Notes: generated by a model not told the origin, from the sequence alone. Positions 1 to 14,598 are shown, numbered from the stretch's first letter. The stretch is 64,000 bases of DNA from an uncultured Candidatus Saccharibacteria bacterium (GCA_964562615.1 CAZLUD010000002.1:17907-81906), one strand, 5' to 3'. Translations and numbers: made by a program.

Positions 1-1251
1 TTTTTTAAATACACCTACGACGGCGTGGCGGGGGTAGAGCGCTTGTATAATGACCAACTCTTAGGAGAAAACGGACTCACCCTGTTTGAAACCAACGCGC
101 AAGGAGAGCGTGAGTCTGAGTACTCGGTGTCACCTCCAAAGGATGGAACAAATTTAGTCTTATCAATAGATAGCAGAGTACAAGAGACACTGCATTCGCT
201 TATTGAGCGTACTGCAAAAGAGCGAGGGTTTGGAGGCGGGGCAGGTGTCATCATGGATGTCACCACCGGAGAAATAATCTCTCTAGTTAGTTATCCAGAG
301 TATAATAGTAACAATCTTGCCCAGGGTGACACCAAAAGCATTCAATCACTCTTAGATAGTGAACAAAAACCATTTCTTAATAGAGCAATTTCTGGGTTGT
401 ATGCACCTGGGTCAATTGTGAAGCCCTACATGGCGGCAGCCGCGCTTACCGAAGGCACCATCACTCCAAATACGGTCGTGCATAGTACGGGTAAATTGAT
501 CATTCCTAACCCGTATTTCCCCGATCAACCCACAGTGTATTCAGATTGGGGAGCACCCGCCCATGGTGATAACGAAGTGACACGCGCGCTTGCGATATCC
601 TCTAACGTATTTTTTCTTTCTGTTGGAGGAGGTGCAAATGGTATTGAGGGGCTTGGTATAGAACGCATAGAAAAATACATGCGAATGTTTGGTTTTGGAG
701 ATGTCGCAGGGCTACCACTCTCTGAAGAGGTGCGCGGTACTATACCTTCACCAGCATGGAAGAAAAATGCGTTTGATACCGAGTGGCGACTAGGTGACAC
801 CTACCTTACGTCTATTGGACAGTACGGCTTTCAGGTGTCACCCCTACAAGTTGCGCGTGCAGTAGCCAGCATTGCCTCGGGGTCATTAGTAACCCCCGTG
901 CTGGTACAAGGAGCTATGAGTACTACCACTAAGCTTGCTATTGATGATAGTGCATTTGCATTAGTGCGAAAGGGTATGCGTCGTGGTGTGCTCGAGGGTA
1001 CTGCTGGCGGTCTTAATGTGCCATACGTTTCAGTAGCAGCAAAAACTGGTACCGCAGAGCTCGGAGTATCAAAAGCAAATGTTAATTCGTGGGTAACCGG
1101 ATTCTTTCCGTATGAAAAACCTCGATATGCGTTTGTGATACTTATGGAGCGAGGTCCAAGTTCTAATACTATAGGAGGTGTGTATGTGATGCGTGGACTA
1201 CTTGATTGGATGCATGTCAACACACCAGAATATTTTGCAACTGAACCTTGA
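1..1251 (+). CDS. Class B penicillin-binding protein (transpeptidase domain), 5'-partial; open to the window edge
   Basis: The frame is open from nt 1 (FFKYTYDGVAGVERLYNDQ...). It carries the transpeptidase motifs SIVK (SxxK), SSN and KTGTAE (KTG). Confidence 0.85.
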   Translation, partial: FFKYTYDGVAGVERLYNDQLLGENGLTLFETNAQGERESEYSVSPPKDGTNLVLSIDSRVQETLHSLIERTAKERGFGGGAGVIMDVTTGEIISLVSYPEYNSNNLAQGDTKSIQSLLDSEQKPFLNRAISGLYAPGSIVKPYMAAAALTEGTITPNTVVHSTGKLIIPNPYFPDQPTVYSDWGAPAHGDNEVTRALAISSNVFFLSVGGGANGIEGLGIERIEKYMRMFGFGDVAGLPLSEEVRGTIPSPAWKKNAFDTEWRLGDTYLTSIGQYGFQVSPLQVARAVASIASGSLVTPVLVQGAMSTTTKLAIDDSAFALVRKGMRRGVLEGTAGGLNVPYVSVAAKTGTAELGVSKANVNSWVTGFFPYEKPRYAFVILMERGPSSNTIGGVYVMRGLLDWMHVNTPEYFATEP

Positions 1252-5602: not shown

Positions 5603-7315
5603 ATGAGAAGAGTGTTTTTGGTGAGAGTTCGCATTATACTCGTCTGTGTCATATTATTTGCACTACTTATCGTGGGAAGACTGTACCACGTACAGATACT
5701 GAACGGTGAGGAGTACACTGATCGCGCCGAGCGACAGTACCTCCGCCCAGGAAAAAATCTATTTGATAGAGGTTCAATCTTTTTTACCAACAAAGACGGA
5801 AGCAAAGTATCAGCGGCAACCATTAAGCGTGGCTTTGGTATCGCCCTTGATCCTCGAGTGCTTGAGCACCCTGATGAGGCATACTACATGCTCAAAGACT
5901 ATCTCCCTCTTGATGAGGAGGACTTTTTGCATCGTGCAGCAAAACAAAATGATGCGTATGAAGAGATTGCCCATAAGGTAGAGGCTGAGATCGGGGGCAA
6001 TATAAAAGCGAGACAGGTAGAAGGGGTAAATGTAATACGAGAGCAGTGGCGATACTATCCGGGTAATTCGCTTGCGTCACACGTGATTGGCTTTGTGGGA
6101 TACGATGGAGATAATCGAGTGGGTATGTATGGACTAGAGCGAAAATTTAATGATGTCCTTACCCGAGAGGATGGCGGTGCGTCACTTAATTTTTTTGCAG
6201 AGCTATTTACCTCCCTTGGAGAAACTCTGTTTGAATCTGATACCGAGCGTGATGGCGACTTGGTGCTTACTATTGAACCTACGGTACAGTTGTCTCTTGA
6301 AGATACTTTACAAGATATCAAAGACGAGTGGGGATCAAAGACTATTGGCGGCATTATTATCAATCCAAAAACGGGCGAAATATACGCCATGGCAGCGTAT
6401 CCAACCTATAACCTTAATGAGTATGGCGCGGTAGATGACCCGGTTGTGTATAAAAATCCTTTGGTAGAAAACGTGTACGAGATGGGCTCTATCATCAAAC
6501 CCCTTACCATGGCAGCGGGCATTGATGCGGGCGCCGTATCACCAACCACCACGTACTATGATGGCGGCACGCTTACCCTTGATGGCTATACTATTTCAAA
6601 CTTTGACGGAAAGGGAAGAGGCACTGTGAGCATGCAAGAAGTATTAAGCCAGTCACTCAATACAGGTGTTGCCTATGTGGTTGATAAAATGGGACACGAA
6701 GCATTTAAGCGCTACATGCTAGGTTATGGACTAGGTACCACAACCGGCATAGACCTTCCTAATGAATCTTCAGGTATTATCACCAACCTCACTTCGCCAC
6801 GATCAATCGAGTACGCAACCGCCTCATTTGGGCAGGGTATTGCGCTTACCCCTATACAAACTGTTTCTGCACTCTCTGTGCTTGCTAATGGCGGTACACG
6901 CATCACGCCCCATGTTGTAAAGGCGATAGACTACAAAGCCTTTCCAACCGCAGCGGTATCCCCAAAGGTTGGCGATGAGGTACTCTCTCTAAGTACGAGC
7001 CTTACCATATCGCGAATGCTTGTTGAGGTGGTAGATAAAGCACTGAGAAACGGCGAGGTAAAAAAGGAACACTATAGTATTGCCGCCAAAACGGGTACTG
7101 CCCAGATTGCCAAGTCTGGGTCGCGTGGCTACTATGATGATAGGTACCTCCATTCATTCTTTGGATACTTTCCTGCCTATGATCCAACATTTCTGGTATT
7201 CTTATTCCATACAGAACCAGTCGGAGCGAGGTACTCATCAGAAACACTCACCAAACCATTTATTGACCTTACCGACTTTCTCATTAACTATTACGAAGTT
7301 CCACCAGATAGATAA
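5603..7315 (+). CDS. ftsI: Peptidoglycan transpeptidase FtsI (class B PBP)
   Basis: 570 aa. N-terminal TM helix, a dimerisation domain, and transpeptidase motifs SIIKP/SxN/KTGTA. Confidence 0.9.
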   Translation: MRRVFLVRVRIILVCVILFALLIVGRLYHVQILNGEEYTDRAERQYLRPGKNLFDRGSIFFTNKDGSKVSAATIKRGFGIALDPRVLEHPDEAYYMLKDYLPLDEEDFLHRAAKQNDAYEEIAHKVEAEIGGNIKARQVEGVNVIREQWRYYPGNSLASHVIGFVGYDGDNRVGMYGLERKFNDVLTREDGGASLNFFAELFTSLGETLFESDTERDGDLVLTIEPTVQLSLEDTLQDIKDEWGSKTIGGIIINPKTGEIYAMAAYPTYNLNEYGAVDDPVVYKNPLVENVYEMGSIIKPLTMAAGIDAGAVSPTTTYYDGGTLTLDGYTISNFDGKGRGTVSMQEVLSQSLNTGVAYVVDKMGHEAFKRYMLGYGLGTTTGIDLPNESSGIITNLTSPRSIEYATASFGQGIALTPIQTVSALSVLANGGTRITPHVVKAIDYKAFPTAAVSPKVGDEVLSLSTSLTISRMLVEVVDKALRNGEVKKEHYSIAAKTGTAQIAKSGSRGYYDDRYLHSFFGYFPAYDPTFLVFLFHTEPVGARYSSETLTKPFIDLTDFLINYYEVPPDR

Positions 7316-8622
7316 TGTATTGTATGCAAGCAAAAGACATTTTTAGAAAGATCATACTCTTTATTATCACCATAGAGGCAAAGCTTATTCTCAAAAAGTA
7401 TAAGCCAAAGATAGTAGCAGTTGCCGGAAGTGTTGGAAAAACCTCTACTAAGGATGCGGTCTATACCGCGCTATCGAGTACCTTTCATACTCGAAAAAGT
7501 GAAAAAAGTTTTAACAGTGACTTTGGGGTACCCCTTACGATACTTGGTGTTGGCAATGGGTGGTATGACCCAATGGTGTGGATTAAAAATATTTTGATCG
7601 GTCTTAACCTTCTTGTTTTCAAAGAAAAATATCCTGAGTGGTTAGTCCTTGAGATTGGCGCAGATAGACCAGGTGATATTGCCTCACTTATGGCGTGGAT
7701 ACAACCACACATAAGTGTCCTTACACGATTTCCTGAGGTGCCGGTTCATGTAGAGTTTTTTTCTTCACCTGAAGAGCTATACAAAGAAGATTTTCTTATC
7801 GCTGACGCACTCCCTGCTGATGGGGTGTTGGTTATCAATGATGATGATGAGCGACAGCGCACATATGAGCTAAAGTCACCTGCATCCACCATAACGTATG
7901 GATTTTCTCAAGATGCAGAGGTACGAGGCTCTGGGGTACAGTTTCGTTATACCGACAAGCAGGTGCGGGGAGTCGCGTTTAGAATTCGCGAAAGCGATCA
8001 CAAAGCAGAGGTGATAGAGCTAGACGGCTCACTGGGGGTACAACACGCGTACCCTGTCCTTGCCGCATTTGCGGTAGGAAAGACCCTCGCAATACCATTT
8101 GATACCCTACAGCAGGCATTTGCTACCTATGACCCCCCACGAGGCAGAATGCGCCTTATAAAGGGCATAAAGCACTCTATTATCATAGATGACACGTATA
8201 ACTCGTCACCTATTGCTGTGGCGCATGCCCTTACCGCACTTCATGATGTGGTTGCCAAAGGCAAAAAGATAGCCATTCTTGGAGACATGCTTGAACTTGG
8301 CGAGTATTCAACAGAAGCACACAAAGAAGTAGGGAGGCAGGTAGCAGGAGTGGTAGACGAGCTGTATACCGTAGGGATACGTGCTCGTATGATTGCCACC
8401 AGCGCACATGAAAGCGGTCTTGCAACTGAGCATATTCACGCCTTTGATGATGCAACCACCTGCGCTAACGCCCTTGAGCCTTTCCTTGCTGAAGGCGATG
8501 TAGTACTCATTAAAGGATCGCAATCAATCCGCCTTGAAAAGGCAGTAGAAGAGCTCATGCAAGAACCAGAAAAAAAGACAGAACTACTTGTACGCCAAGA
8601 TTCTGCGTGGCTTGACAAATAG
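7315..8622 (+). CDS. murF: UDP-MurNAc-tripeptide:D-Ala-D-Ala ligase MurF
   Basis: Mur ligase P-loop VAGSVGKTSTK. Positioned after ftsI. Confidence 0.88.
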   Translation: MYCMQAKDIFRKIILFIITIEAKLILKKYKPKIVAVAGSVGKTSTKDAVYTALSSTFHTRKSEKSFNSDFGVPLTILGVGNGWYDPMVWIKNILIGLNLLVFKEKYPEWLVLEIGADRPGDIASLMAWIQPHISVLTRFPEVPVHVEFFSSPEELYKEDFLIADALPADGVLVINDDDERQRTYELKSPASTITYGFSQDAEVRGSGVQFRYTDKQVRGVAFRIRESDHKAEVIELDGSLGVQHAYPVLAAFAVGKTLAIPFDTLQQAFATYDPPRGRMRLIKGIKHSIIIDDTYNSSPIAVAHALTALHDVVAKGKKIAILGDMLELGEYSTEAHKEVGRQVAGVVDELYTVGIRARMIATSAHESGLATEHIHAFDDATTCANALEPFLAEGDVVLIKGSQSIRLEKAVEELMQEPEKKTELLVRQDSAWLDK

Positions 8623-8980: not shown

Positions 8981-9008
8981 TGCATTTAAGGCCATTTTCC
9001 TCCATAAT
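8980..9008 (+). promoter_or_regulatory. Sigma70-like promoter for the tRNA
   Basis: TTGCAT -35, 17-nt spacer, CATAAT -10. The tRNA 5' end lies about 11 nt downstream. Confidence 0.6.
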
Positions 9009-9019
9009 CGTAACTACTT

Positions 9020-9091
9020 GGCCCTATCGTCTAACGGTTAGGACGGAGCCTTCTCAAGGCTTAAATCGGGGTTCGATTCCCCGTAGGGTCA
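9020..9091 (+). tRNA. tRNA-Glu (anticodon CUC), no encoded CCA
   Basis: Manual cloverleaf: acceptor GGCCCTA/TAGGGTC, D-arm GTCT/GGAC, anticodon stem GAGCC/GGCTT with loop TTCTCAA, T-arm CGGGG-TTCGATT-CCCCG. Confidence 0.8.
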
Positions 9092-9093
9092 CA

Positions 9094-9225
9094 AATCGGC
9101 CGACCGAATACGCGAATGCGTTTCGGTCGTTGCCGTTTGTAGGCACTACGGGGAATCGAACGACGGAGGCGGTATACAAGAACCGAAGCGAAGCGTAGGT
9201 TGCTTGTCGCCGAGTCGCGACCAGC
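9094..9225. repeat. 132-bp direct repeat unit A (copy 1). It contains a hairpin and an inverted 16-nt tRNA T-arm fragment
   Basis: Identical to 14325-14456. It contains ctacggggaatcgaac, the reverse complement of the tRNA T-arm. Confidence 0.9.
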
Positions 9226-9294
9226 GTGCTTAGCCAGAATGGCTTAGCAAAAGCGGGTCGATTCCCCGTAGGGTCACAAATCGAGACGAAGTCT

Positions 9295-9539
9295 CGTTTT
9301 GTGATGAAATACTAGCCTTTGCTCGAACCCATTTCGAGAAAAGACCATAACTACAACGCGTCGAGCGCGTGGTGGCTTTGTACTTCTGCGTACGCATTGG
9401 GGTGTGGCGCGCCTCGCCACTCGCTAATCGCTCGCCCCCAACCAATGAAATATCCTTACTTTTTGATTTTTCGGTGGAGGGGTCTGGGGAGGAGCCGACA
9501 AAAAATTGAAAGGATATTTCTTTGGTTTGGGGTCGCCGC
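9295..9539. repeat. Left arm (about 245 bp) of the terminal inverted repeat flanking the island cargo
   Basis: It is the reverse complement of 14082-14326. The outer tip cgttttgtga approximates the reverse complement of the core. Confidence 0.9.
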
Positions 9540-9574
9540 CATGAGTCTAGAAATAAGATTTTGTCCACGATCAA

Positions 9575-9598
9575 ACTATTATACTTTAATATAATAGT
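9575..9598 (+). promoter_or_regulatory. C-box-like palindromic operator upstream of the controller gene
   Basis: Perfect 9-bp inverted repeat ACTATTATA-n6-TATAATAGT, ending in AGTC like C.PvuII-type C-boxes. Tandem TATAAT boxes lie at 9603 and 9621. Confidence 0.55.
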
Positions 9599-9633
9599 CG
9601 TGTATAATGTAAGAGTTGGGTATAATTGTGGAG

Positions 9634-9837
9634 ATGAATGATTCCGCAAAGCTCGGCATGAATTTGAAAAAAATTCGCGAAGCGAAAAATATGTCTCAAG
9701 GTGACGTTATGCGCGTTATGGGTTGCAGTCGTAGTTATGTTAGCAACATCGAAAATGGAAAGACAAACCCCACCCTTGAGACAATTTCAAAACTAGCGAA
9801 GGTACTCGATGTAAGCACCATTGAGCTATTAAAATAG
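9634..9837 (+). CDS. XRE-family HTH regulator, candidate restriction-modification controller (C protein), probably leaderless
   Basis: HTH motif MSQGDVMRVMGCSRSYVSNIENGK. The ATG lies about 8 nt after the TATAAT at 9621-9626. The track used a TTG at 9616. Confidence 0.7.
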   Translation: MNDSAKLGMNLKKIREAKNMSQGDVMRVMGCSRSYVSNIENGKTNPTLETISKLAKVLDVSTIELLK

Positions 9838-9841
9838 AATT

Positions 9842-10798
9842 ATGACTACGCAACAAACAATCGCAAAACTCGCATATGAGTTAAAAATCAATAAAATCTA
9901 CGCGCGTCATGTTTTTCATAATGCAGACAAAACGAGATTATTTGAAGATGCGGCTCGAATTGTTAATGAGAAGCCAAAACCTTTCGTGAAATGGGTTGGA
10001 GGAAAAAGACAGTTGCTCCGCCAATTTCGTGATATGGGGTTATATCCACCTGATGATTTTGATCCTGTTACCAATACATACTTTGAGCCGTTTGTTGGCG
10101 GTGGAGCTGTCTTTTTCGATCTTCTGCCTCAGAAAGCAGAACTTTCTGATCTCAATACAGAACTTGTGACAACATACAACGTCATTAAAAATGACGTTGA
10201 TGCACTAATTAATTCACTCAAAAAACACAAGTACGAAAAAGAGTACTATCTAGAATTGCGTGCAAAAGATCCCAAAGAACTATCAGATATAAATGTTGCT
10301 TCTCGGTTCATTTTTCTTAATCGCACTTGCTTCAATGGCATGTATAGGGTCAATAGCAAAGGTGAATTCAATGTTCCGTTTGGGAAATATACAAACCCTA
10401 TAATTTGTGACGGAGATAATTTGTTTAAAGTATCGAAATCACTAAAAAAAGTAACTATCAAAAATCAAGACTATAAAAAAGTTTTGGATAAAGCAAAAAA
10501 AGGAGATTTTGTATATTTCGATCCACCTTATTATCCAGTAAGTAAAACTGCTTCCTTCACTTCATATACAGCAGATGCTTTTTTAGAAAAAGAACAGACA
10601 GAGTTGAGAGATACATTCGTAGAATTACATAAACGTGGTTGTTTTGTCATGCTTTCTAACTCCGATACTTCAGTTATCAACGAACTATACTCGAATATTA
10701 AGGATATCAAAGTATCAAAAGTTGCTGCAAGCCGTGCCATAAACTCAAATGCTTCAAAGCGAGGAAAGATAAGTGAAGTTTTAGTAACTAACTATTAA
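9842..10798 (+). CDS. Dam-family (D12 class, alpha) N6-adenine DNA methyltransferase with a 55-aa N-terminal extension
   Basis: Motifs KWVGGKRQLL, FEPFVGGGAVFF (motif I) and FDPPY (motif IV). Confidence 0.85.
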   Translation: MTTQQTIAKLAYELKINKIYARHVFHNADKTRLFEDAARIVNEKPKPFVKWVGGKRQLLRQFRDMGLYPPDDFDPVTNTYFEPFVGGGAVFFDLLPQKAELSDLNTELVTTYNVIKNDVDALINSLKKHKYEKEYYLELRAKDPKELSDINVASRFIFLNRTCFNGMYRVNSKGEFNVPFGKYTNPIICDGDNLFKVSKSLKKVTIKNQDYKKVLDKAKKGDFVYFDPPYYPVSKTASFTSYTADAFLEKEQTELRDTFVELHKRGCFVMLSNSDTSVINELYSNIKDIKVSKVAASRAINSNASKRGKISEVLVTNY

Positions 10799-10801
10799 AT
10801 T

Positions 10802-11329
10802 ATGATTAAGGGTGGCGTTGGAGGAGGAAATACAAAAACAGGATTACACTTTGAAGGTCGAATTAATATTGTCGATCTACTAAATAGCCAGCCTGGCTAC
10901 AAAGTGACGAAAGATGTTGTCTACTTTGAGGGTTCAGAAGTCGCAATCTGCCTTGCAAAACATAAATTGTATAAATGGCTTGAAACTCAAAACATAGACT
11001 ACAAAAAGTACATATCAAAAAAGTTGCTACCCGATGAGGCGTTGTATGTAATTGTAGACAACACTTTGTATGTCATTGAAATGAAGTTTCAGGAGACTCC
11101 TGGGTCAGTTGATGAAAAATTACAAACGTGTGATTTTAAGCGTAAGCAATACTCAAAATTGATGGCTCCACTAAACATTGAAGTTGAGTACATGTATGTA
11201 CTAAGTGAGTGGTTTCGTAAAGATGAATACAAAGACGTACTTGACTATATTATTTCAGTTGGATGTCAGTACTATTTTGAATATATACCATTACAGAAAC
11301 TCGGCTTACCTGTACCGAAAATACAATAA
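10802..11329 (+). CDS. Small PD-(D/E)xK nuclease, candidate type II restriction endonuclease
   Basis: 175 aa with LLPDE...VDNTLYVIEMK, giving PD-x14-ExK. It sits between two MTase genes. Confidence 0.5.
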   Translation: MIKGGVGGGNTKTGLHFEGRINIVDLLNSQPGYKVTKDVVYFEGSEVAICLAKHKLYKWLETQNIDYKKYISKKLLPDEALYVIVDNTLYVIEMKFQETPGSVDEKLQTCDFKRKQYSKLMAPLNIEVEYMYVLSEWFRKDEYKDVLDYIISVGCQYYFEYIPLQKLGLPVPKIQ

Positions 11330-11335
11330 TTATTC

Positions 11336-12088
11336 ATGGCTAAGGAAATGAAACTACACCCTGAAGAATTCGACCTTGAATGCACAACGGTGTGGGCATT
11401 TCCACGGCGTGGTAACTGGGCAACCCACAAATCAGACTGGCGTGGTAACTGGGCACCAGAAGTCGCCCGCAATCTAATCCTTCGATACTCTAACGAGGGT
11501 GACATTCTGCTAGATCCAATGATTGGCGGCGGTACTACTGCGATTGAAGCAAAGATACTCAATAGAAATATCATATGTTCAGACGTAAATGATATTGCAC
11601 TAGAACGAACAATGGAAAGTCTAAAATTTCCAGTTGAAAACAAATCGTGGCAAAAGATTGTTAAGAGGGATGCACGTGACCTCAGCAAGGCTGAAAATGA
11701 AAGTATTGATTTTATTCTCACTCACCCACCGTATGCTGATATTATCAAATATAGTGAGGGAGAAATTGATGAAGATCTTTCAAATATCCACGCGATAGAC
11801 GAGTTTGCGGACGAAATGGAAAAAGTCGCTAGTGAATTGTATAGAGTCCTTAAGCCTGGTAAATTTTGCGCAATTTTGATCGGTGATACTCGACGTCAAA
11901 AAATGTATCAACCTCTCGCATATCGAGTTATGGATCGCTTTTTGAATGTAGGTTTCGATCTCAAAGAAGACATCATAAAAAGACAATACAACTGTAAGGC
12001 AACGGGTTTTTGGGTAAATAAATCAAAAGAAAATAATTTCTTACTAATAATGCACGAACATTTGTTTGTATTTCAAAAAGCAAATTAA
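11336..12088 (+). CDS. Amino (N6A/N4C) DNA methyltransferase with motif order X-I then IV
   Basis: TVWAFPRRGNWATH...GDILLDPMIGGGTTAIEA (motif X/I) followed by ILTHPPYADI (motif IV). Confidence 0.75.
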   Translation: MAKEMKLHPEEFDLECTTVWAFPRRGNWATHKSDWRGNWAPEVARNLILRYSNEGDILLDPMIGGGTTAIEAKILNRNIICSDVNDIALERTMESLKFPVENKSWQKIVKRDARDLSKAENESIDFILTHPPYADIIKYSEGEIDEDLSNIHAIDEFADEMEKVASELYRVLKPGKFCAILIGDTRRQKMYQPLAYRVMDRFLNVGFDLKEDIIKRQYNCKATGFWVNKSKENNFLLIMHEHLFVFQKAN

Positions 12089-13874
12089 CGATATGTCTTA
12101 CAAAATTTTAAAAATTTCCATAAACAACTATCGGTCTATCAAAAGAATCACATTGACCACACCCGAATTCGGAAATCCTACAATTATATGTGGCGCAAAC
12201 AACGTAGGAAAAACAAATTTTTTACGAGCAATAGATTTATTTTTTAATGAAGTAAATTTCAAAGCATCAAACGACATTCCCTATGAAATAGTCGAAGCAA
12301 CGCGAGGAGCTGGCTATAAGACCACCATAAGTATTGATTTCATCGATACTGCTACAAAGGAAAAGGTTGTTATAAAGAAAGTATTCCGAGAACAATCTGG
12401 GGAAAATGTAGTTGAGAGAACTGGATATAAAAAGCCGTATCGAAGTAACCGTAATAATATTTATGATACTGAGATTAGAAAATTTCTTGATAATTTCCGT
12501 TTTCTTTTCGTCGAAGCTAGTAATGTAGACATCCCTGCACTTGTTGCACAAATCACAAAAAATAATGTACTTTCTGGACTCGACAAATTACGCAAGAAAC
12601 AAACTAAACCGTTGGATATTTTGAAAAAATTTATTTCGGAATCCGAAAAATCACTACAAAATATCGAGACGAATATCACAAAAAATTTTCAAGACTTTGC
12701 ACATGGGATTGGCACTTACACTGAAGGCTTAGATGCAAAAGACTGGCAGATTAAATTCATTTTTCCTGAGTATGAATTCTTAAGAGAAGCTGTTGGTAAT
12801 ATGGTTAACTTAGTGATGCAGGACAGCAACCAAAAAGAGCTCGAAGCTAAAGGTAGTGGTATTCAAAGAATACTCTTACTCTCTCTAATAAAGTATATCT
12901 CTGAGAACACAAAGAAAACTGTAATTTGGGGTATTGATGAACCAGAGGCTTTTCTTCAGCCAGGACTTCAGAAAAAAGTTTTTGCCATAATAAAGGAGAT
13001 GTCACGAAACCTTGAGATATTCATAACGACACACTCACATCACTTTGTGGATATTGGGTACCTAGAGCCAGTGCATCTATTTAATGCTAAATATACTCAA
13101 CAAGCATACTCAAGAAAGAAGAACAAAGAATATCTGAAGATAAGCACTGAAGTAGATAAGGTTACAGGATACAACAAGGTACAAAAAATAAGAGAACATC
13201 TCGGAGTAGCAACAAACGACAGTTGGGAGATTCTGCCCTACAACTTAATTGTTGAAGGCAACGAGGACAAATTATATTTGCTTAAGCTTTTAGAAATTAA
13301 CGGACTCGATCAGCCGAAAATACTTACAGCTGACGGAGCGGATAAAGTTCCCGGATATCTAGTCTTTGTTAATATGTTTTGCCAAGAACAAAAAATAAAA
13401 CCGAAAATACGAACAATATTAGATCATGACGCAAAAGGAAAACAGGTCTCAAGCAGCCTTAAATCAAAGAACTATTCATTTGATCATAAGTTAGAATTTA
13501 TTGAAAGATTCGATGGTAAAAGTAACGCAACTTGGGAATATGACGTTGAAGATTTAATTTATCCTGAAATATTAATTAAATCCGTTAATAAAATACTACA
13601 AAAAAGAAATTATTCGATACTAAAAGTAAAAGAGACCGTCACAAAGAAGAATCAGCCGAGTTATCAGAAAGATTCAATTCTTTCATTCATTACAGCGCAG
13701 GTTAAAGAAGTTAACCAGGATAAAGAAGAGCTTGACTTTGAAAGTCCGTCACTCAAAATATTTCTTTGTACAACCACCTGTTCTCTACTTTCACAGACTA
13801 AGGACATAGCTAACTTGAACAAAAAATATCCTGAAATCCTGAAATATTTAAAACAGATATCTGTAGAATTTTGA
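12066..13874 (+). CDS. OLD-family ATP-dependent nuclease (ABC ATPase fused to TOPRIM); alternative start at 12093
   Basis: Walker A ICGANNVGKTN, signature GSGIQR, Walker B IDEPEAFL, H-loop TTHSHH. The C-terminal TOPRIM is LIVEGNEDK...ADGADK. Confidence 0.8.
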   Translation: MYFKKQINDMSYKILKISINNYRSIKRITLTTPEFGNPTIICGANNVGKTNFLRAIDLFFNEVNFKASNDIPYEIVEATRGAGYKTTISIDFIDTATKEKVVIKKVFREQSGENVVERTGYKKPYRSNRNNIYDTEIRKFLDNFRFLFVEASNVDIPALVAQITKNNVLSGLDKLRKKQTKPLDILKKFISESEKSLQNIETNITKNFQDFAHGIGTYTEGLDAKDWQIKFIFPEYEFLREAVGNMVNLVMQDSNQKELEAKGSGIQRILLLSLIKYISENTKKTVIWGIDEPEAFLQPGLQKKVFAIIKEMSRNLEIFITTHSHHFVDIGYLEPVHLFNAKYTQQAYSRKKNKEYLKISTEVDKVTGYNKVQKIREHLGVATNDSWEILPYNLIVEGNEDKLYLLKLLEINGLDQPKILTADGADKVPGYLVFVNMFCQEQKIKPKIRTILDHDAKGKQVSSSLKSKNYSFDHKLEFIERFDGKSNATWEYDVEDLIYPEILIKSVNKILQKRNYSILKVKETVTKKNQPSYQKDSILSFITAQVKEVNQDKEELDFESPSLKIFLCTTTCSLLSQTKDIANLNKKYPEILKYLKQISVEF

Positions 13875-14081
13875 CAAGCACACACGCAGCAACACCGAGC
13901 AGGCGGCGCGAGCGAATGCGAGCGTGCCTATGCGAGGTGCTTGCGTAGTGTGAGCGGACGCTAGCTTTACCACGCGCGCTGTATACGGGAAGCGCGCCTC
14001 GCTCGACGCGAGGACGGAAAAAAGCGTAGTGGTAGGCTCTCAAGTAGATGGAGACTATAATGGAGCTTTTTGGAGGACGAA

Positions 14082-14326
14082 GCGGCGACCCCAAACCAAA
14101 GAAATATCCTTTCAATTTTTTGTCGGCTCCTCCCCAGACCCCTCCACCGAAAAATCAAAAAGTAAGGATATTTCATTGGTTGGGGGCGAGCGATTAGCGA
14201 GTGGCGAGGCGCGCCACACCCCAATGCGTACGCAGAAGTACAAAGCCACCACGCGCTCGACGCGTTGTAGTTATGGTCTTTTCTCGAAATGGGTTCGAGC
14301 AAAGGCTAGTATTTCATCACAAATCG
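14082..14326. repeat. Right arm (about 245 bp) of the terminal inverted repeat
   Basis: It is the reverse complement of 9295-9539. It ends in the TCACAAATCG core, which abuts repeat unit A. Confidence 0.9.
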
Positions 14327-14456
14327 GCCGACCGAATACGCGAATGCGTTTCGGTCGTTGCCGTTTGTAGGCACTACGGGGAATCGAACGACGGAGGCGG
14401 TATACAAGAACCGAAGCGAAGCGTAGGTTGCTTGTCGCCGAGTCGCGACCTAATTT
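14325..14456. repeat. 132-bp direct repeat unit A (copy 2)
   Basis: Identical to 9094-9225. It is followed by a 52-bp insertion flanked by GCGACC, then the shared 58-bp segment. Confidence 0.9.
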
Positions 14457-14563
14457 TTACGACCAAAGGGAGATAAAAATGGAAGTACTCTTTGTGGTGC
14501 GACCAGCGTGCTTAGCCAGAATGGCTTAGCAAAAGCGGGTCGATTCCCCGTAGGGTCACACGA

Positions 14564-14598
14564 AATCCTGGTACTAATTTTTTATTAGTACCAGGATT
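14564..14598. repeat. Perfect 15-bp palindrome with a T5 loop at the island/chromosome junction
   Basis: aatcctggtactaat-ttttt-attagtaccaggatt, immediately after the last tRNA 3' copy. Confidence 0.8.

What the first reader, a model, noticed from the sequence alone, without database searches (positions are those of the whole stretch)
9575..9640. C-box-like palindrome and tandem -10 boxes in front of a probably leaderless controller gene
ACTATTATA-ctttaa-TATAATAGT is a perfect 9-bp inverted repeat with an AGTC end, like known C-protein operators. Two TATAAT hexamers follow (9603 and 9621). The ATG at 9634 sits about 8 nt after the second one with no room for an SD. C genes are classically leaderless and autoregulated. 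This supports a timed RM establishment circuit controlling the downstream MTase, nuclease, MTase and OLD genes.
Basis: partly seen in the sequence, partly recalled or inferred. Interest (0 to 1): 0.5.

Follow-up and report, generated by a model that had tools for sequence, protein, structure and literature searches.

The report
Controller-gene operator and leaderless promoter
The palindrome and the TATAAT boxes are the conserved operator and promoter of a small DNA-binding regulator that heads a mobile restriction-modification cassette in a Patescibacteria genome. It is a real but fairly ordinary variant of a known kind of switch.

Summary
A perfect 9+9 bp inverted repeat lies at 9575-9598. 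TATAAT hexamers start at 9590, 9603 and 9621. The ATG at 9634 follows the last hexamer by 7 nt. It opens a 67-aa XRE helix-turn-helix gene tightly followed by a Dam-type methyltransferase, a PD-ExK nuclease, a second methyltransferase and an OLD-like ATPase.

Seventy-four non-redundant upstream regions of homologues, nearly all Patescibacteria, share one layout:
- a palindrome with core T-R-T-T-A N10 T-A-A-Y-A centred near -47;
- a GTG;
- a -10-like hexamer near -31;
- a third half-site;
- a near-consensus -10 that ends 6-9 nt before the ATG.

The arms change in a compensatory way, and the half-site type tracks the recognition helix. So the site is very probably the regulator's own operator on a leaderless promoter.

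Three points weaken the classical reading:
- The "AGTC end" is not conserved, and the geometry is not GACT-N3-AGTC.
- Leaderless starts are the norm in this genome.
- The gene order (regulator, methylase, nuclease) and the consensus -10 boxes favour simple negative feedback over a timed delay of the nuclease.

In relatives the same operator overlaps the promoter of a divergent serine recombinase.

The parts
9575..9598 (.). Distal operator (OL). It is a perfect 9+9 bp inverted repeat, ACTATTATA-N6-TATAATAGT. The family-conserved core is TATTA (9577-9581) and TAATA (9592-9596), centred at -47 relative to the ATG.
   Evidence: Searches show the repeat. One search shows arm positions 6-10 complementary in 28-52 of 54 loci, with A:T/G:C swaps. 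One search shows that the half-site type tracks the recognition helix. One search shows that the conserved block among close relatives starts at 9576.
9599..9602 (+). CGTG spacer. Its GTG is conserved in the family. It sits at the -35 position of the proximal promoter and directly upstream of the distal -10-like hexamer.
   Evidence: One search finds GTG within 8 nt after the right half-site in 47 of 74 loci. One search shows GTG-containing 4-mers dominating just upstream of the distal hexamer. PMC2175313 reports a CGTG spacer for C proteins with a DR[T/S]Y helix.
9603..9608 (+). Distal -10-like hexamer TATAAT, starting at -31. It is either a second promoter or part of the proximal operator.
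   Evidence: a TAnnnT hexamer lies at -36..-26 in 65 of 74 loci (55 of 74 at 5/6 or better), with the peak at -31.
9610..9616 (+). Third half-site (R), TAAGAGT. It is a direct copy of the right arm TAATAGT, 18 nt downstream, and ends 17 nt before the ATG.
   Evidence: One search shows the direct repeat family D1 with spacing 18. One search shows R resembling its own locus's right arm more than other loci's arms (21 representatives: 4.43 against 4.02 of 7, permutation P about 0.015). One search gives 0 of 1000 permutations reaching the observed value.
9621..9626 (+). Proximal -10 hexamer TATAAT. The predicted transcript starts at or within 1-2 nt of A9634.
   Evidence: a hexamer starts at -15..-12 in 72 of 74 loci (66 of 74 at 5/6 or better), mode -13.
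9627..9633 (+). A 7-nt stretch, TGTGGAG, between the -10 and the start codon. It has no correctly spaced Shine-Dalgarno site. The motif GTGGA(T/G) recurs in many relatives.
9634..9837 (+). Controller-like XRE helix-turn-helix gene of 67 aa. The start at the ATG 9634 is supported by a conserved N-terminus, M-x-[DE]-[SA]-x-K-L-G.
   Evidence: HTH_3 2e-19; Control_protein 2.1e-12; C.AhdI 3.4e-9; alignment of 38 homologues.
9842..10798 (+). Dam-family N6-adenine DNA methyltransferase. It starts 4 nt after the regulator's stop codon.
   Evidence: MethyltransfD12 2.8e-61; TIGR00571 dam 3.1e-87.
10802..11329 (+). A 175-aa PD-ExK nuclease. It is the presumed restriction endonuclease of the cassette, inferred from its position.
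   Evidence: One search shows invariant P77-D78, E93 and K95. Searches give a model (pLDDT 78.7) with only weak matches, and those are to PD-(D/E)XK nucleases. Searches show relatives with the same two methyltransferases carrying R.DpnII, a MutH-like protein or DUF6996/6997 in this slot.
11336..12088 (+). Second DNA methyltransferase, of the N6_N4 type.
   Evidence: N6_N4_Mtase 1.2e-25; PADLOC MTase_II 5.3e-89.
12066..13874 (+). OLD/GajA/AriA-like ABC-type ATPase. It is the last gene of the block. The start may be the TTG at 12066 or the ATG at 12093.
   Evidence: AAA_15, AAA_21; AriA 3.8e-27, Old 7.2e-23, GajA 1e-20.
9295..9539 (.). Left arm of a 245-nt perfect inverted repeat that brackets the cassette. 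The right arm is 14082-14326. The operator-promoter lies in the last 60 of the 94 nt between this arm and the ATG.
   Evidence: repeat pair I1; arm conserved in L002, L009, L022, L079; 36 related loci have such a bracket.
14082..14326 (.). Right arm of the 245-nt inverted repeat.
9020..9092 (+). tRNA-Glu(CTC) next to the island. Partial copies of its 3' end recur at 9255-9283 and 14537-14565.

Best explanation
The segment 9575-9633 is the operator-promoter of a controller-like XRE regulator (9634-9837). This regulator heads a horizontally acquired, GATC-type restriction-modification plus OLD cassette.

Proposed mechanism:
1. A dimer of the 67-aa protein binds the palindrome. Its core is TATTA-N10-TAATA.
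2. A further half-site, TAAGAGT, lies between the two -10 hexamers.
3. RNA polymerase uses the proximal TATAAT (9621-9626) and starts at or next to A9634. The regulator mRNA is therefore leaderless.
4. The downstream genes follow in the same transcript. The first is coupled at a 4-nt gap.
5. The promoters carry consensus -10 boxes and the half-sites sit in the -24 to -57 zone. Occupancy therefore most likely gives negative feedback: a burst of expression on entry into a cell, then shut-down to a set level. Weak activation at low occupancy is not excluded.

Shown: the anatomy, its conservation, the arm covariation, the covariation between helix and half-site, and the gene content.
Inferred: binding, the transcription start, and the sign of regulation.
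For: - Anatomy in the window.
- Protein class: HTH_3 2e-19; PADLOC Control_protein 2.1e-12; C.AhdI 3.4e-9 and C.BclI 1.1e-7.
- Family layout in 74 non-redundant upstream regions from 80 genome loci: proximal -10 in 72 of 74 at -15..-12, distal -10-like in 65 of 74 at about -31.
- Palindrome: arm positions 6, 8 and 9 swap A:T or T:A with G:C (25 against 18 at position 9). A locus's own arms give 8.2 of 12 complementary pairs, against 6.1 for permuted partners (maximum 6.66 in 500 permutations).
- I count about seven operator classes in the table, each with its own recognition-helix signature. Examples: TATTA with SRS[FY]xSN, TGTTA with SRGFxST, GTTGT/ACAAC with DKSFxSN, TAGTA/TACCA with GRSFITN.
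- The third half-site follows the locus's own right arm.
- Among close relatives (84-97% identical proteins) conservation starts sharply at 9576 and runs to the ATG. The 35 nt upstream are scrambled.
- The stop-to-ATG gap to the next gene is 1-6 nt in 61 of 75 loci, although the cargo differs.
- The first downstream gene is a DNA methyltransferase in roughly 27 of 67 loci (my sum over the methyltransferase families). Others are restriction or defence genes.
- In relatives the operator contains the -10 of a divergent recombinase gene. That only makes sense for a repressor.
- Precedents: a repressing C protein at a consensus promoter in Mollicutes (PMC5282649), and leaderless C genes with a motif-to-ATG distance of 17-18 nt (PMC2632904).
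Against: - There is no experimental binding or transcription-start data. All support is comparative.
- Many of the loci are related, so the permutation tests overstate independence. With 21 representatives the test on the third half-site gives only P about 0.015.
- In the closest relatives the right arm is imperfect (5-7 of 9), so the perfect palindrome is particular to this window.
- Three half-sites, with 15-nt and 18-nt centre spacings, do not give an obvious two-dimer geometry.
- The distal TATAAT could be the main promoter, which would give an 18-19-nt leader.
- The proximal promoter has a poor -35 (TCGTGT). That would fit an activator-dependent promoter.
Confidence: 0.6

Rival explanations
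1. This is a classical PvuII/AhdI-type switch. The promoter is weak without the regulator. A dimer at the distal palindrome activates the leaderless promoter, which gives positive feedback. Later occupancy of the proximal site represses it. The result is delayed nuclease expression during establishment in a new host.
For: - The layout parallels the 35-bp PvuII-like motif: a strong 5' operator, a conserved GTG, a weaker 3' site, and 17 nt to the start codon.
- The SRSY helix aligns with DRSY of C.AhdI, and the spacer is CGTG.
- The -35 position of the proximal promoter reads TCGTGT, a poor match.
Against: - The -10 boxes are consensus and highly conserved. C-activated promoters show no recognisable -10 (PMC2632904).
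- The gene after the regulator is a methyltransferase, and the nuclease lies in the same co-oriented block with gaps of 3-6 nt. Activation would raise methylase and nuclease together and cannot delay one against the other.
- No second operator core lies in the island.
- The half-site geometry differs from GACT-N3-AGTC.
Confidence: 0.2
2. The protein is primarily the repressor of a mobile element, an immunity-type XRE regulator. Its main target is the promoter of a divergent large serine recombinase. Control of the cargo operon is secondary. In this window the recombinase has been lost and the operator is a relic that still autoregulates.
For: - In 15 related loci the recombinase ATG and the regulator ATG are only 58-65 nt apart, back to back. 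The recombinase -10 (often TATAAT, 6 nt before its ATG) lies inside the palindrome.
- A recombinase of the same family flanks 33 of 80 loci and the closest relatives.
- The cargo behind the regulator is highly variable and not always restriction-modification.
- C-protein homologues are known to associate with mobile-element genes (PMC2632904).
Against: - No recombinase homologue exists anywhere in the 64-kb window, yet the operator-promoter is intact and perfect.
- In class-1 loci the recombinase is 300-600 nt away or absent.
- This reading is compatible with the best explanation rather than exclusive of it.
Confidence: 0.12
3. The gene is not leaderless. Transcription starts about 7 nt after the distal TATAAT, near 9615-9616. 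The proximal TATAAT and TGTGGAG are part of a short AU-rich leader, or of the operator.
For: - The distal hexamer is conserved in 65 of 74 loci.
- In one large subfamily the distal hexamer is preceded by TGTGA. By my reading this gives TGTG-A-TATACT, an extended -10 of the TRTGn type (promoter consensus in PMC5282649).
- This genome hardly uses Shine-Dalgarno sites, so a leader without one would not be unusual.
Against: - The proximal hexamer is more strongly and more precisely placed (72 of 74; gap to ATG 6-9, mode 7).
- The same '-10 then 6-7 nt then ATG' pattern recurs at other genes of the window, 14 of 59 against about 3 expected.
- Both promoters may be active, as in PvuII.
Confidence: 0.2
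4. No regulator binds here. The palindrome is a by-product of AT-rich promoter sequence, with -10 boxes on both strands.
For: - The arms contain TATAAT on both strands.
- A 9-bp perfect repeat appears in 25% of simulated sequences of island composition.
- The core pattern TATTA-N10-TAATA with at most one mismatch is not rarer than chance in the window.
Against: - The conserved arm positions are TRTTA/TAAYA, not the -10 hexamers. Subfamilies with TGTTAT...ATAACA have no TATAAT in the arms.
- The arm changes are compensatory, and the half-site type tracks the recognition helix.
- A third copy of the half-site covaries.
Confidence: 0.04

Closest known systems
C (controller) proteins of type II restriction-modification systems with PvuII/AhdI/Esp1396I-type C-boxes
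   Same: - A small XRE helix-turn-helix protein encoded at the head of a restriction-modification operon.
- A palindromic distal operator plus a weaker promoter-proximal site.
- A conserved GTG between the two sites.
- The motif ends 17 nt before the start codon.
- Predicted leaderless mRNA and autoregulation.
- Sequence similarity to C.AhdI and C.BclI.
   Different: - The half-sites are T-R-T-T-A N10 T-A-A-Y-A (20 bp), not GACT-N3-AGTC (11 bp).
- Only three clear half-sites are present.
- The -10 boxes are consensus.
- The next gene is a methyltransferase, not the nuclease.
- The family heads many unrelated cargos.
- The host is Patescibacteria.
HsdC controller proteins of Mollicutes (PMC5282649)
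   Same: - A reduced-genome host.
- A core recognition word GTGTTA, close to the TGTTA half-site of one subfamily here.
- An operator that overlaps a strong promoter with a consensus, extended -10.
- Inferred repressor function.
- A motif absent from the earlier C-box catalogues.
   Different: - HsdC sites are mostly direct repeats, (GTGTTA-N5)x2.
- They control type I systems.
- No leaderless arrangement or recombinase linkage is reported in the passages I read.
Immunity-type XRE repressors at divergent promoters of phages and integrative elements (cI/Cro-like logic)
   Same: - A small helix-turn-helix gene sits back to back with a recombinase gene.
- One compact operator region serves both promoters.
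   Different: - There is no second antagonistic regulator.
- The cargo is defence genes rather than phage functions.
- In this window the recombinase is missing.
DpnII / MboI / LlaDCHI-type GATC systems (two methyltransferases plus one endonuclease)
   Same: - A Dam-family methyltransferase plus an N6_N4 methyltransferase flank the nuclease gene.
- Close relatives carry a true R.DpnII-family gene in that slot.
- GATC is depleted in the window, 139 against 226 expected.
   Different: - The nuclease here is an unrelated 175-aa PD-ExK protein.
- To my knowledge the classical DpnII cassette has no controller gene (from memory, not checked here).

Membership tests
C (controller) protein of restriction-modification systems | Small (about 70-100 aa) single-domain XRE-type helix-turn-helix protein | tested here: met
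   67 aa; HTH_3 2e-19; PADLOC Control_protein models 2.1e-12 and 2.9e-11; C.AhdI 3.4e-9, C.BclI 1.1e-7 and C.Esp1396I 1.3e-5. Generic XRE regulators (SinR, DdrO) score similarly, so sequence alone does not decide.
C (controller) protein of restriction-modification systems | Gene lies within or next to a restriction-modification gene set | tested here: met
   It is followed at 4 nt by a Dam-family methyltransferase, then a PD-ExK nuclease and a second methyltransferase. In the family, roughly 27 of 67 first downstream genes are DNA methyltransferases (my sum over families).
C (controller) protein of restriction-modification systems | C gene directly precedes and is co-transcribed with the endonuclease gene, while the methyltransferase has its own promoter (the basis of the timing delay) | tested here: not met
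   The order is C, M, R, M, OLD on one strand, with gaps of 4, 3 and 6 nt and a 23-nt overlap. No second operator lies in the island. No conserved internal promoter was seen at the C/M junction.
PvuII-like C-box (motifs 1-6 of PMC2632904) | Two operators of the form GACT-N3-AGTC separated by 4 nt, within a 35-bp motif | tested here: not met
   The conserved arm positions are 6-10 from the centre (TRTTA / TAAYA, 20 bp). The AGT(C) end is complementary in only 17-22 of 54 loci. Only three half-sites are present.
PvuII-like C-box (motifs 1-6 of PMC2632904) | Highly conserved GT(G) in the spacer between the distal and proximal sites | tested here: met
   CGTG lies at 9599-9602. GTG follows the right half-site within 8 nt in 47 of 74 loci. 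The same bases could also serve as a -35 or an extended -10 element, so the meaning is ambiguous.
PvuII-like C-box (motifs 1-6 of PMC2632904) | Motif ends 17-18 nt before the start codon (leaderless mRNA) | tested here: met
   The third half-site ends at 9616 and the ATG is at 9634, so 17 nt lie between. A -10 hexamer ends 6-9 nt before the ATG in 72 of 74 loci. The transcription start itself is not testable here.
PvuII-like C-box (motifs 1-6 of PMC2632904) | Weak promoter without a recognisable -10, dependent on C for activity | tested here: not met
   A perfect TATAAT lies at 9621-9626. The hexamer is nearly invariant at its T1, A2 and T6 positions in the family.
C (controller) protein of restriction-modification systems | The protein binds its own upstream operator and autoregulates | not testable with these tools
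   It is inferred only from arm covariation and from the covariation between helix and half-site.
DpnII-type GATC restriction-modification system | Dam-class methyltransferase, second N6_N4 methyltransferase and a DpnII-family endonuclease | tested here: inconclusive
   Both methyltransferases are present. Relatives with 73-78% identical methyltransferases carry Pfam DpnII (1.9e-95), MutH-like or DUF6996/6997 genes in the nuclease slot. The window's 175-aa protein matches none of these families. GATC specificity is not tested.
OLD-family / Gabija GajA-like nuclease | N-terminal ABC-type ATPase plus C-terminal Toprim nuclease domain | tested here: inconclusive
   The ATPase part matches AAA_15/AAA_21, and PADLOC Old, GajA and AriA models. 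No Toprim match was returned and I did not examine the C-terminal half further.

The most novel reading that the evidence does not exclude
The regulator and its operator may be the fixed 'head' of a cassette platform that is widespread in Patescibacteria.
- The unit is bracketed by long, often 100% identical inverted repeats, and is usually anchored at the 3' end of a tRNA gene.
- Unrelated defence operons are exchanged within it, precisely between the regulator's stop codon and a conserved right-end element.
- The same operator holds the leaderless promoter of a divergent large serine recombinase.
- One small protein would thus couple expression of the defence cargo to the mobility or inversion of the unit.
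Probability: 0.3. Interest if true: 0.65.

Novelty: new variant of a known kind. Interest (0 to 1): 0.42.

Why it matters
- It extends the controller-protein and operator paradigm of restriction-modification systems to Patescibacteria, with a new operator class, T-R-T-T-A N10 T-A-A-Y-A plus a third half-site.
- It offers about seven natural pairs of half-site and recognition helix. These could be used to study how XRE regulators re-specify their DNA targets.
- It is a caution for genome scans. In organisms where leaderless mRNAs are the rule, 'leaderless' is not evidence for a controller gene. A controller placed before the methyltransferase gene need not be a timing device.
- The link to a recombinase promoter and to repeat-bracketed, cargo-swapping cassettes may explain how these tiny genomes trade defence systems.

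Tried and rejected
- Looking for the window's four cargo proteins in 80 related loci found the two methyltransferases in only a handful and the 175-aa nuclease in none. The cassette content is therefore not what defines the family.
- Rfam gave nothing but the tRNA at gathering threshold on the whole window and nothing meaningful besides it at E up to 1 on 9000-9700. The palindrome and the flanking structured repeat are not known RNAs.
- A second operator inside the island was sought and not found.
- An internal leaderless promoter for the methyltransferase (TAAAAT 6 nt before ATG 9842) was considered. I rejected it as a conserved feature because the hexamer follows from the codons Leu-Lys-stop and most relatives have TTGAAATAA.
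- A full second palindromic operator (OR) equal to OL could not be placed. Its left half would overlap OL's right arm, so I describe a third half-site only.
- My first covariation test on fixed windows gave a small effect (5.08 against 4.66 of 8). I repeated it anchored on the palindrome centre and with one representative per arm type.
- The fold search of the 175-aa model gave no match with E at or below 0.001. It supports only the PD-(D/E)XK class.
- Literature searches found no description of this module in Patescibacteria.

Full report
**1. The observation**

The sequence at 9575-9640 is as described.
- ACTATTATA (9575-9583) and TATAATAGT (9590-9598) are perfectly complementary and 6 nt apart.
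- TATAAT occurs at 9603 and 9621, and also at 9590 inside the right arm and on the minus strand at 9578-9583.
- The ATG at 9634 follows the last hexamer by 7 nt (TGTGGAG). The GGAG touches the ATG, so it cannot act as a normally spaced ribosome-binding site.
Its mirror is AACT, so it is not part of the repeat.

A 9-bp perfect repeat is not significant alone. In sequence of island composition about 0.37 are expected per 4.5 kb, and 25% of simulations have at least one. The hexamer cluster is unique: only 19 TATAAT lie on the + strand in 64 kb, and this is the only trio within 40 nt.

**2. Context**

The window is a Patescibacteria-type chromosome.
- Cell-wall genes (a transpeptidase at 5603-7315 and a Mur ligase at 7315-8622) are followed by tRNA-Glu at 9020-9092.
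- A low-GC island follows, with 32-39% GC against 41-54% in the flanks.
- The island encodes five genes on one strand with gaps of 4, 3 and 6 nt and one 23-nt overlap:
  - a 67-aa XRE helix-turn-helix protein (9634-9837);
  - a Dam-family methyltransferase (9842-10798);
  - a 175-aa protein (10802-11329);
  - an N6_N4 methyltransferase (11336-12088);
  - an OLD/GajA/AriA-like ATPase (12066-13874).
- The 175-aa protein has an invariant PD...ExK motif. Its model matches PD-(D/E)XK nucleases, and only weakly.
- In relatives with 73-78% identical methyltransferases the same slot holds R.DpnII, a MutH-like protein or DUF6996/6997. It is therefore very probably the endonuclease of a GATC-type system.
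- GATC is depleted in the window, 139 against 226 expected.

**3. The regulator**

- It matches PADLOC controller-protein models (2e-12). Among solved structures it matches C.AhdI (3.4e-9), C.BclI and C.Esp1396I, alongside generic XRE regulators.
- It has 238 homologues at E up to 1e-5. Most are 67-73 aa.
- Their N-termini (M-x-[DE]-[SA]-x-K-L-G) are conserved from the residue that corresponds to ATG 9634. The internal Met9 of the window protein and the upstream TTG extension are not conserved. The start at 9634 therefore stands.

**4. Comparative anatomy of the upstream region**

A scan of one genome per species returned 245 loci and I kept the best 80. Nearly all are Patescibacteria assemblies. 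Seventy-four non-redundant upstream regions share one plan:
- a palindrome centred about 47 nt before the ATG;
- a GTG a few bases after it, in 47 of 74 loci;
- a -10-like hexamer that peaks at -31 (65 of 74);
- a further half-site;
- a near-consensus TATA[AC]T that starts at -15..-12 (72 of 74, mode -13).

Aligned on its centre, the palindrome is conserved at positions 1-2 (TA|TA) and 6-10 (T-R-T-T-A ... T-A-A-Y-A). Compensatory swaps occur at positions 6, 8 and 9, with A:T 25 against G:C 18 at position 9. Positions 11-12, which hold the window's ACT/AGT, are not kept complementary. A locus's own arms give 8.2 of 12 complementary pairs, against 6.1 for arms paired across loci (maximum 6.66 in 500 permutations).

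The half-site type tracks the recognition helix:
- TATTA goes with SRS[FY]xSN, as in the window;
- TGTTA goes with SRGFxST;
- GTTGT/ACAAC goes with DKSFxSN;
- TATTG/CAATA goes with [GD]R[SA]FVSN;
- TAGTA/TACCA goes with GRSFITN.

I count about seven such classes in the table.

The third half-site (window TAAGAGT, 9610-9616) is a direct copy of the right arm 18 nt downstream. It follows its own locus's arm better than other loci's arms.

Among close relatives (84-97% identical proteins) conservation starts abruptly at 9576 and runs to the ATG. The preceding 35 nt are scrambled. The right arm is imperfect in them, so the perfect palindrome is a feature of this window.

**5. What this means**

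The palindrome is very probably the binding site of the protein encoded next to it. The proximal hexamer very probably directs a transcript that begins at or next to the A of the ATG. Two cautions apply.

First, leaderless starts are the rule in this genome. Only 3 of 58 long ORFs have a Shine-Dalgarno motif. Fourteen of 59 have a -10-like hexamer 5-9 nt before the ATG, against about 3 expected. The leaderless arrangement says little about the gene being a controller.

Second, the classical timing logic does not fit.
- The regulator gene is coupled to a methyltransferase gene, and the nuclease gene lies in the same block.
- There is no second operator.
- The -10 boxes are consensus, whereas C-activated promoters show no recognisable -10 (PMC2632904).
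- A repressing controller at a strong promoter has a precedent in Mollicutes, where the core word GTGTTA even resembles the TGTTA half-site of one subfamily here (PMC5282649).

I therefore favour negative feedback on a constitutively strong leaderless promoter. A PvuII-type activation-repression switch is the main rival.

**6. Resemblance to known C-boxes**

These features are shared with the PvuII-like 35-bp motif (PMC2632904, PMC2175313):
- a strong distal palindromic site and a weaker proximal site;
- a conserved GTG between them. The window has CGTG, the spacer reported for C proteins with a DR[T/S]Y helix, and the window helix SRSY aligns with DRSY of C.AhdI;
- 17 nt from the end of the motif to the ATG.

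These features are not shared:
- the GACT-N3-AGTC half-boxes;
- the four-box structure;
- the weak promoter;
- the C-then-R gene order.

The site works like a C-box but is not a member of the described motif classes.

**7. Wider setting (outside the finding)**

- The gene after the regulator starts 1-6 nt after its stop codon in 61 of 75 loci, although the cargo differs.
- The first cargo genes include many methyltransferases, restriction enzymes, GmrSD, an Hsp70-like trio, nucleotidyltransferase (SMODS) genes and some housekeeping genes.
- A large serine recombinase flanks 33 of 80 loci.
- In 15 loci its ATG lies 58-65 nt from the regulator's ATG, back to back. Its own -10, often TATAAT 6 nt before the ATG, lies inside the palindrome. 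There the operator must also control the recombinase.
- The window has no recombinase.
- Thirty-six loci have long inverted repeats that bracket the regulator and its cargo. In the window these are 245 nt and 100% identical (9295-9539 and 14082-14326).
- In one class the left arm begins about 5 nt before the end of a tRNA gene and covers the 3' end of the recombinase gene.
- The window's arms are strongly structured and match no Rfam family.
- The right-end sequence just after the OLD stop codon (from about 13876) is conserved in L002 and, more weakly, in L079, although those loci carry different cargo.

I could not explain why the ends of a tRNA-linked island are inverted rather than direct repeats.

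**8. Verdict**

This is a new operator variant of the known controller-protein kind, in a lineage where it had not been described in the papers I could search. As a regulatory element it is of moderate interest. It would matter more if the repeat-bracketed, recombinase-linked cassette platform proves real.

Noticed in passing
window 9295-9539 and 14082-14326; also 9089-9222 = 14317-14450 and 9217-9278 = 14499-14560: The cassette is bracketed by a 245-nt, 100% identical inverted repeat. Outside it lie two perfect direct repeats that contain partial copies of the tRNA-Glu 3' end. Thirty-six related loci have comparable inverted brackets of 50-340 nt. In one class the left arm starts about 5 nt before the end of a tRNA gene and covers the 3' end of a serine recombinase gene. 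Inverted rather than direct repeats at the ends of a tRNA-linked island are unexplained. The arms are strongly structured (z -3.6 and -3.9) and match no Rfam family.
   Followed up: partly
window 10802-11329: This 175-aa protein has an invariant PD...ExK motif, no Pfam family above threshold and more than 7000 homologues. The best 120 are 65-100% identical, and most of those named by a source come from Patescibacteria assemblies. It occupies the endonuclease slot between two methyltransferases that in relatives flank R.DpnII, MutH-like or DUF6996/6997 genes. It looks like an undescribed, very common restriction endonuclease family, possibly GATC-specific.
   Followed up: partly
whole window (58-59 long ORFs): Shine-Dalgarno motifs are almost absent (3 of 58). 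Fourteen of 59 ORFs have a -10-like hexamer 5-9 nt before the ATG, against about 3 expected. Leaderless mRNAs seem to be the default for first genes of operons in this organism.
   Followed up: partly
L023, L040, L042, L053, L054, L061, L067, L069, L070, L080 and others (intergenic region between recombinase and regulator): A 58-65-nt bidirectional region holds two apparently leaderless promoters, for the recombinase and the regulator, and the shared operator. The recombinase -10 lies inside the palindrome.
   Followed up: partly
window 9838-13875 compared with L002, L015, L029, L044, L083, L086-L089: The cargo behind the regulator is exchanged as a block, between the regulator's stop codon and a conserved right-end element. 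The fourth and later genes vary among close relatives. They include an OLD-like ATPase, SMODS/S_4TM (CBASS-like) genes, GmrSD, a HerA-like ATPase, and a C5 methyltransferase with a HATPase protein.
   Followed up: partly
whole window: GATC is under-represented (139 observed against 226 expected from a maximal-order Markov estimate). It is the strongest depletion among the 4-bp palindromes tested, which fits long exposure to GATC restriction.
   Followed up: no
window 9569-9572: A GATC site lies 3 nt upstream of the palindrome. It is not conserved in relatives, so it is probably without regulatory meaning.
   Followed up: yes
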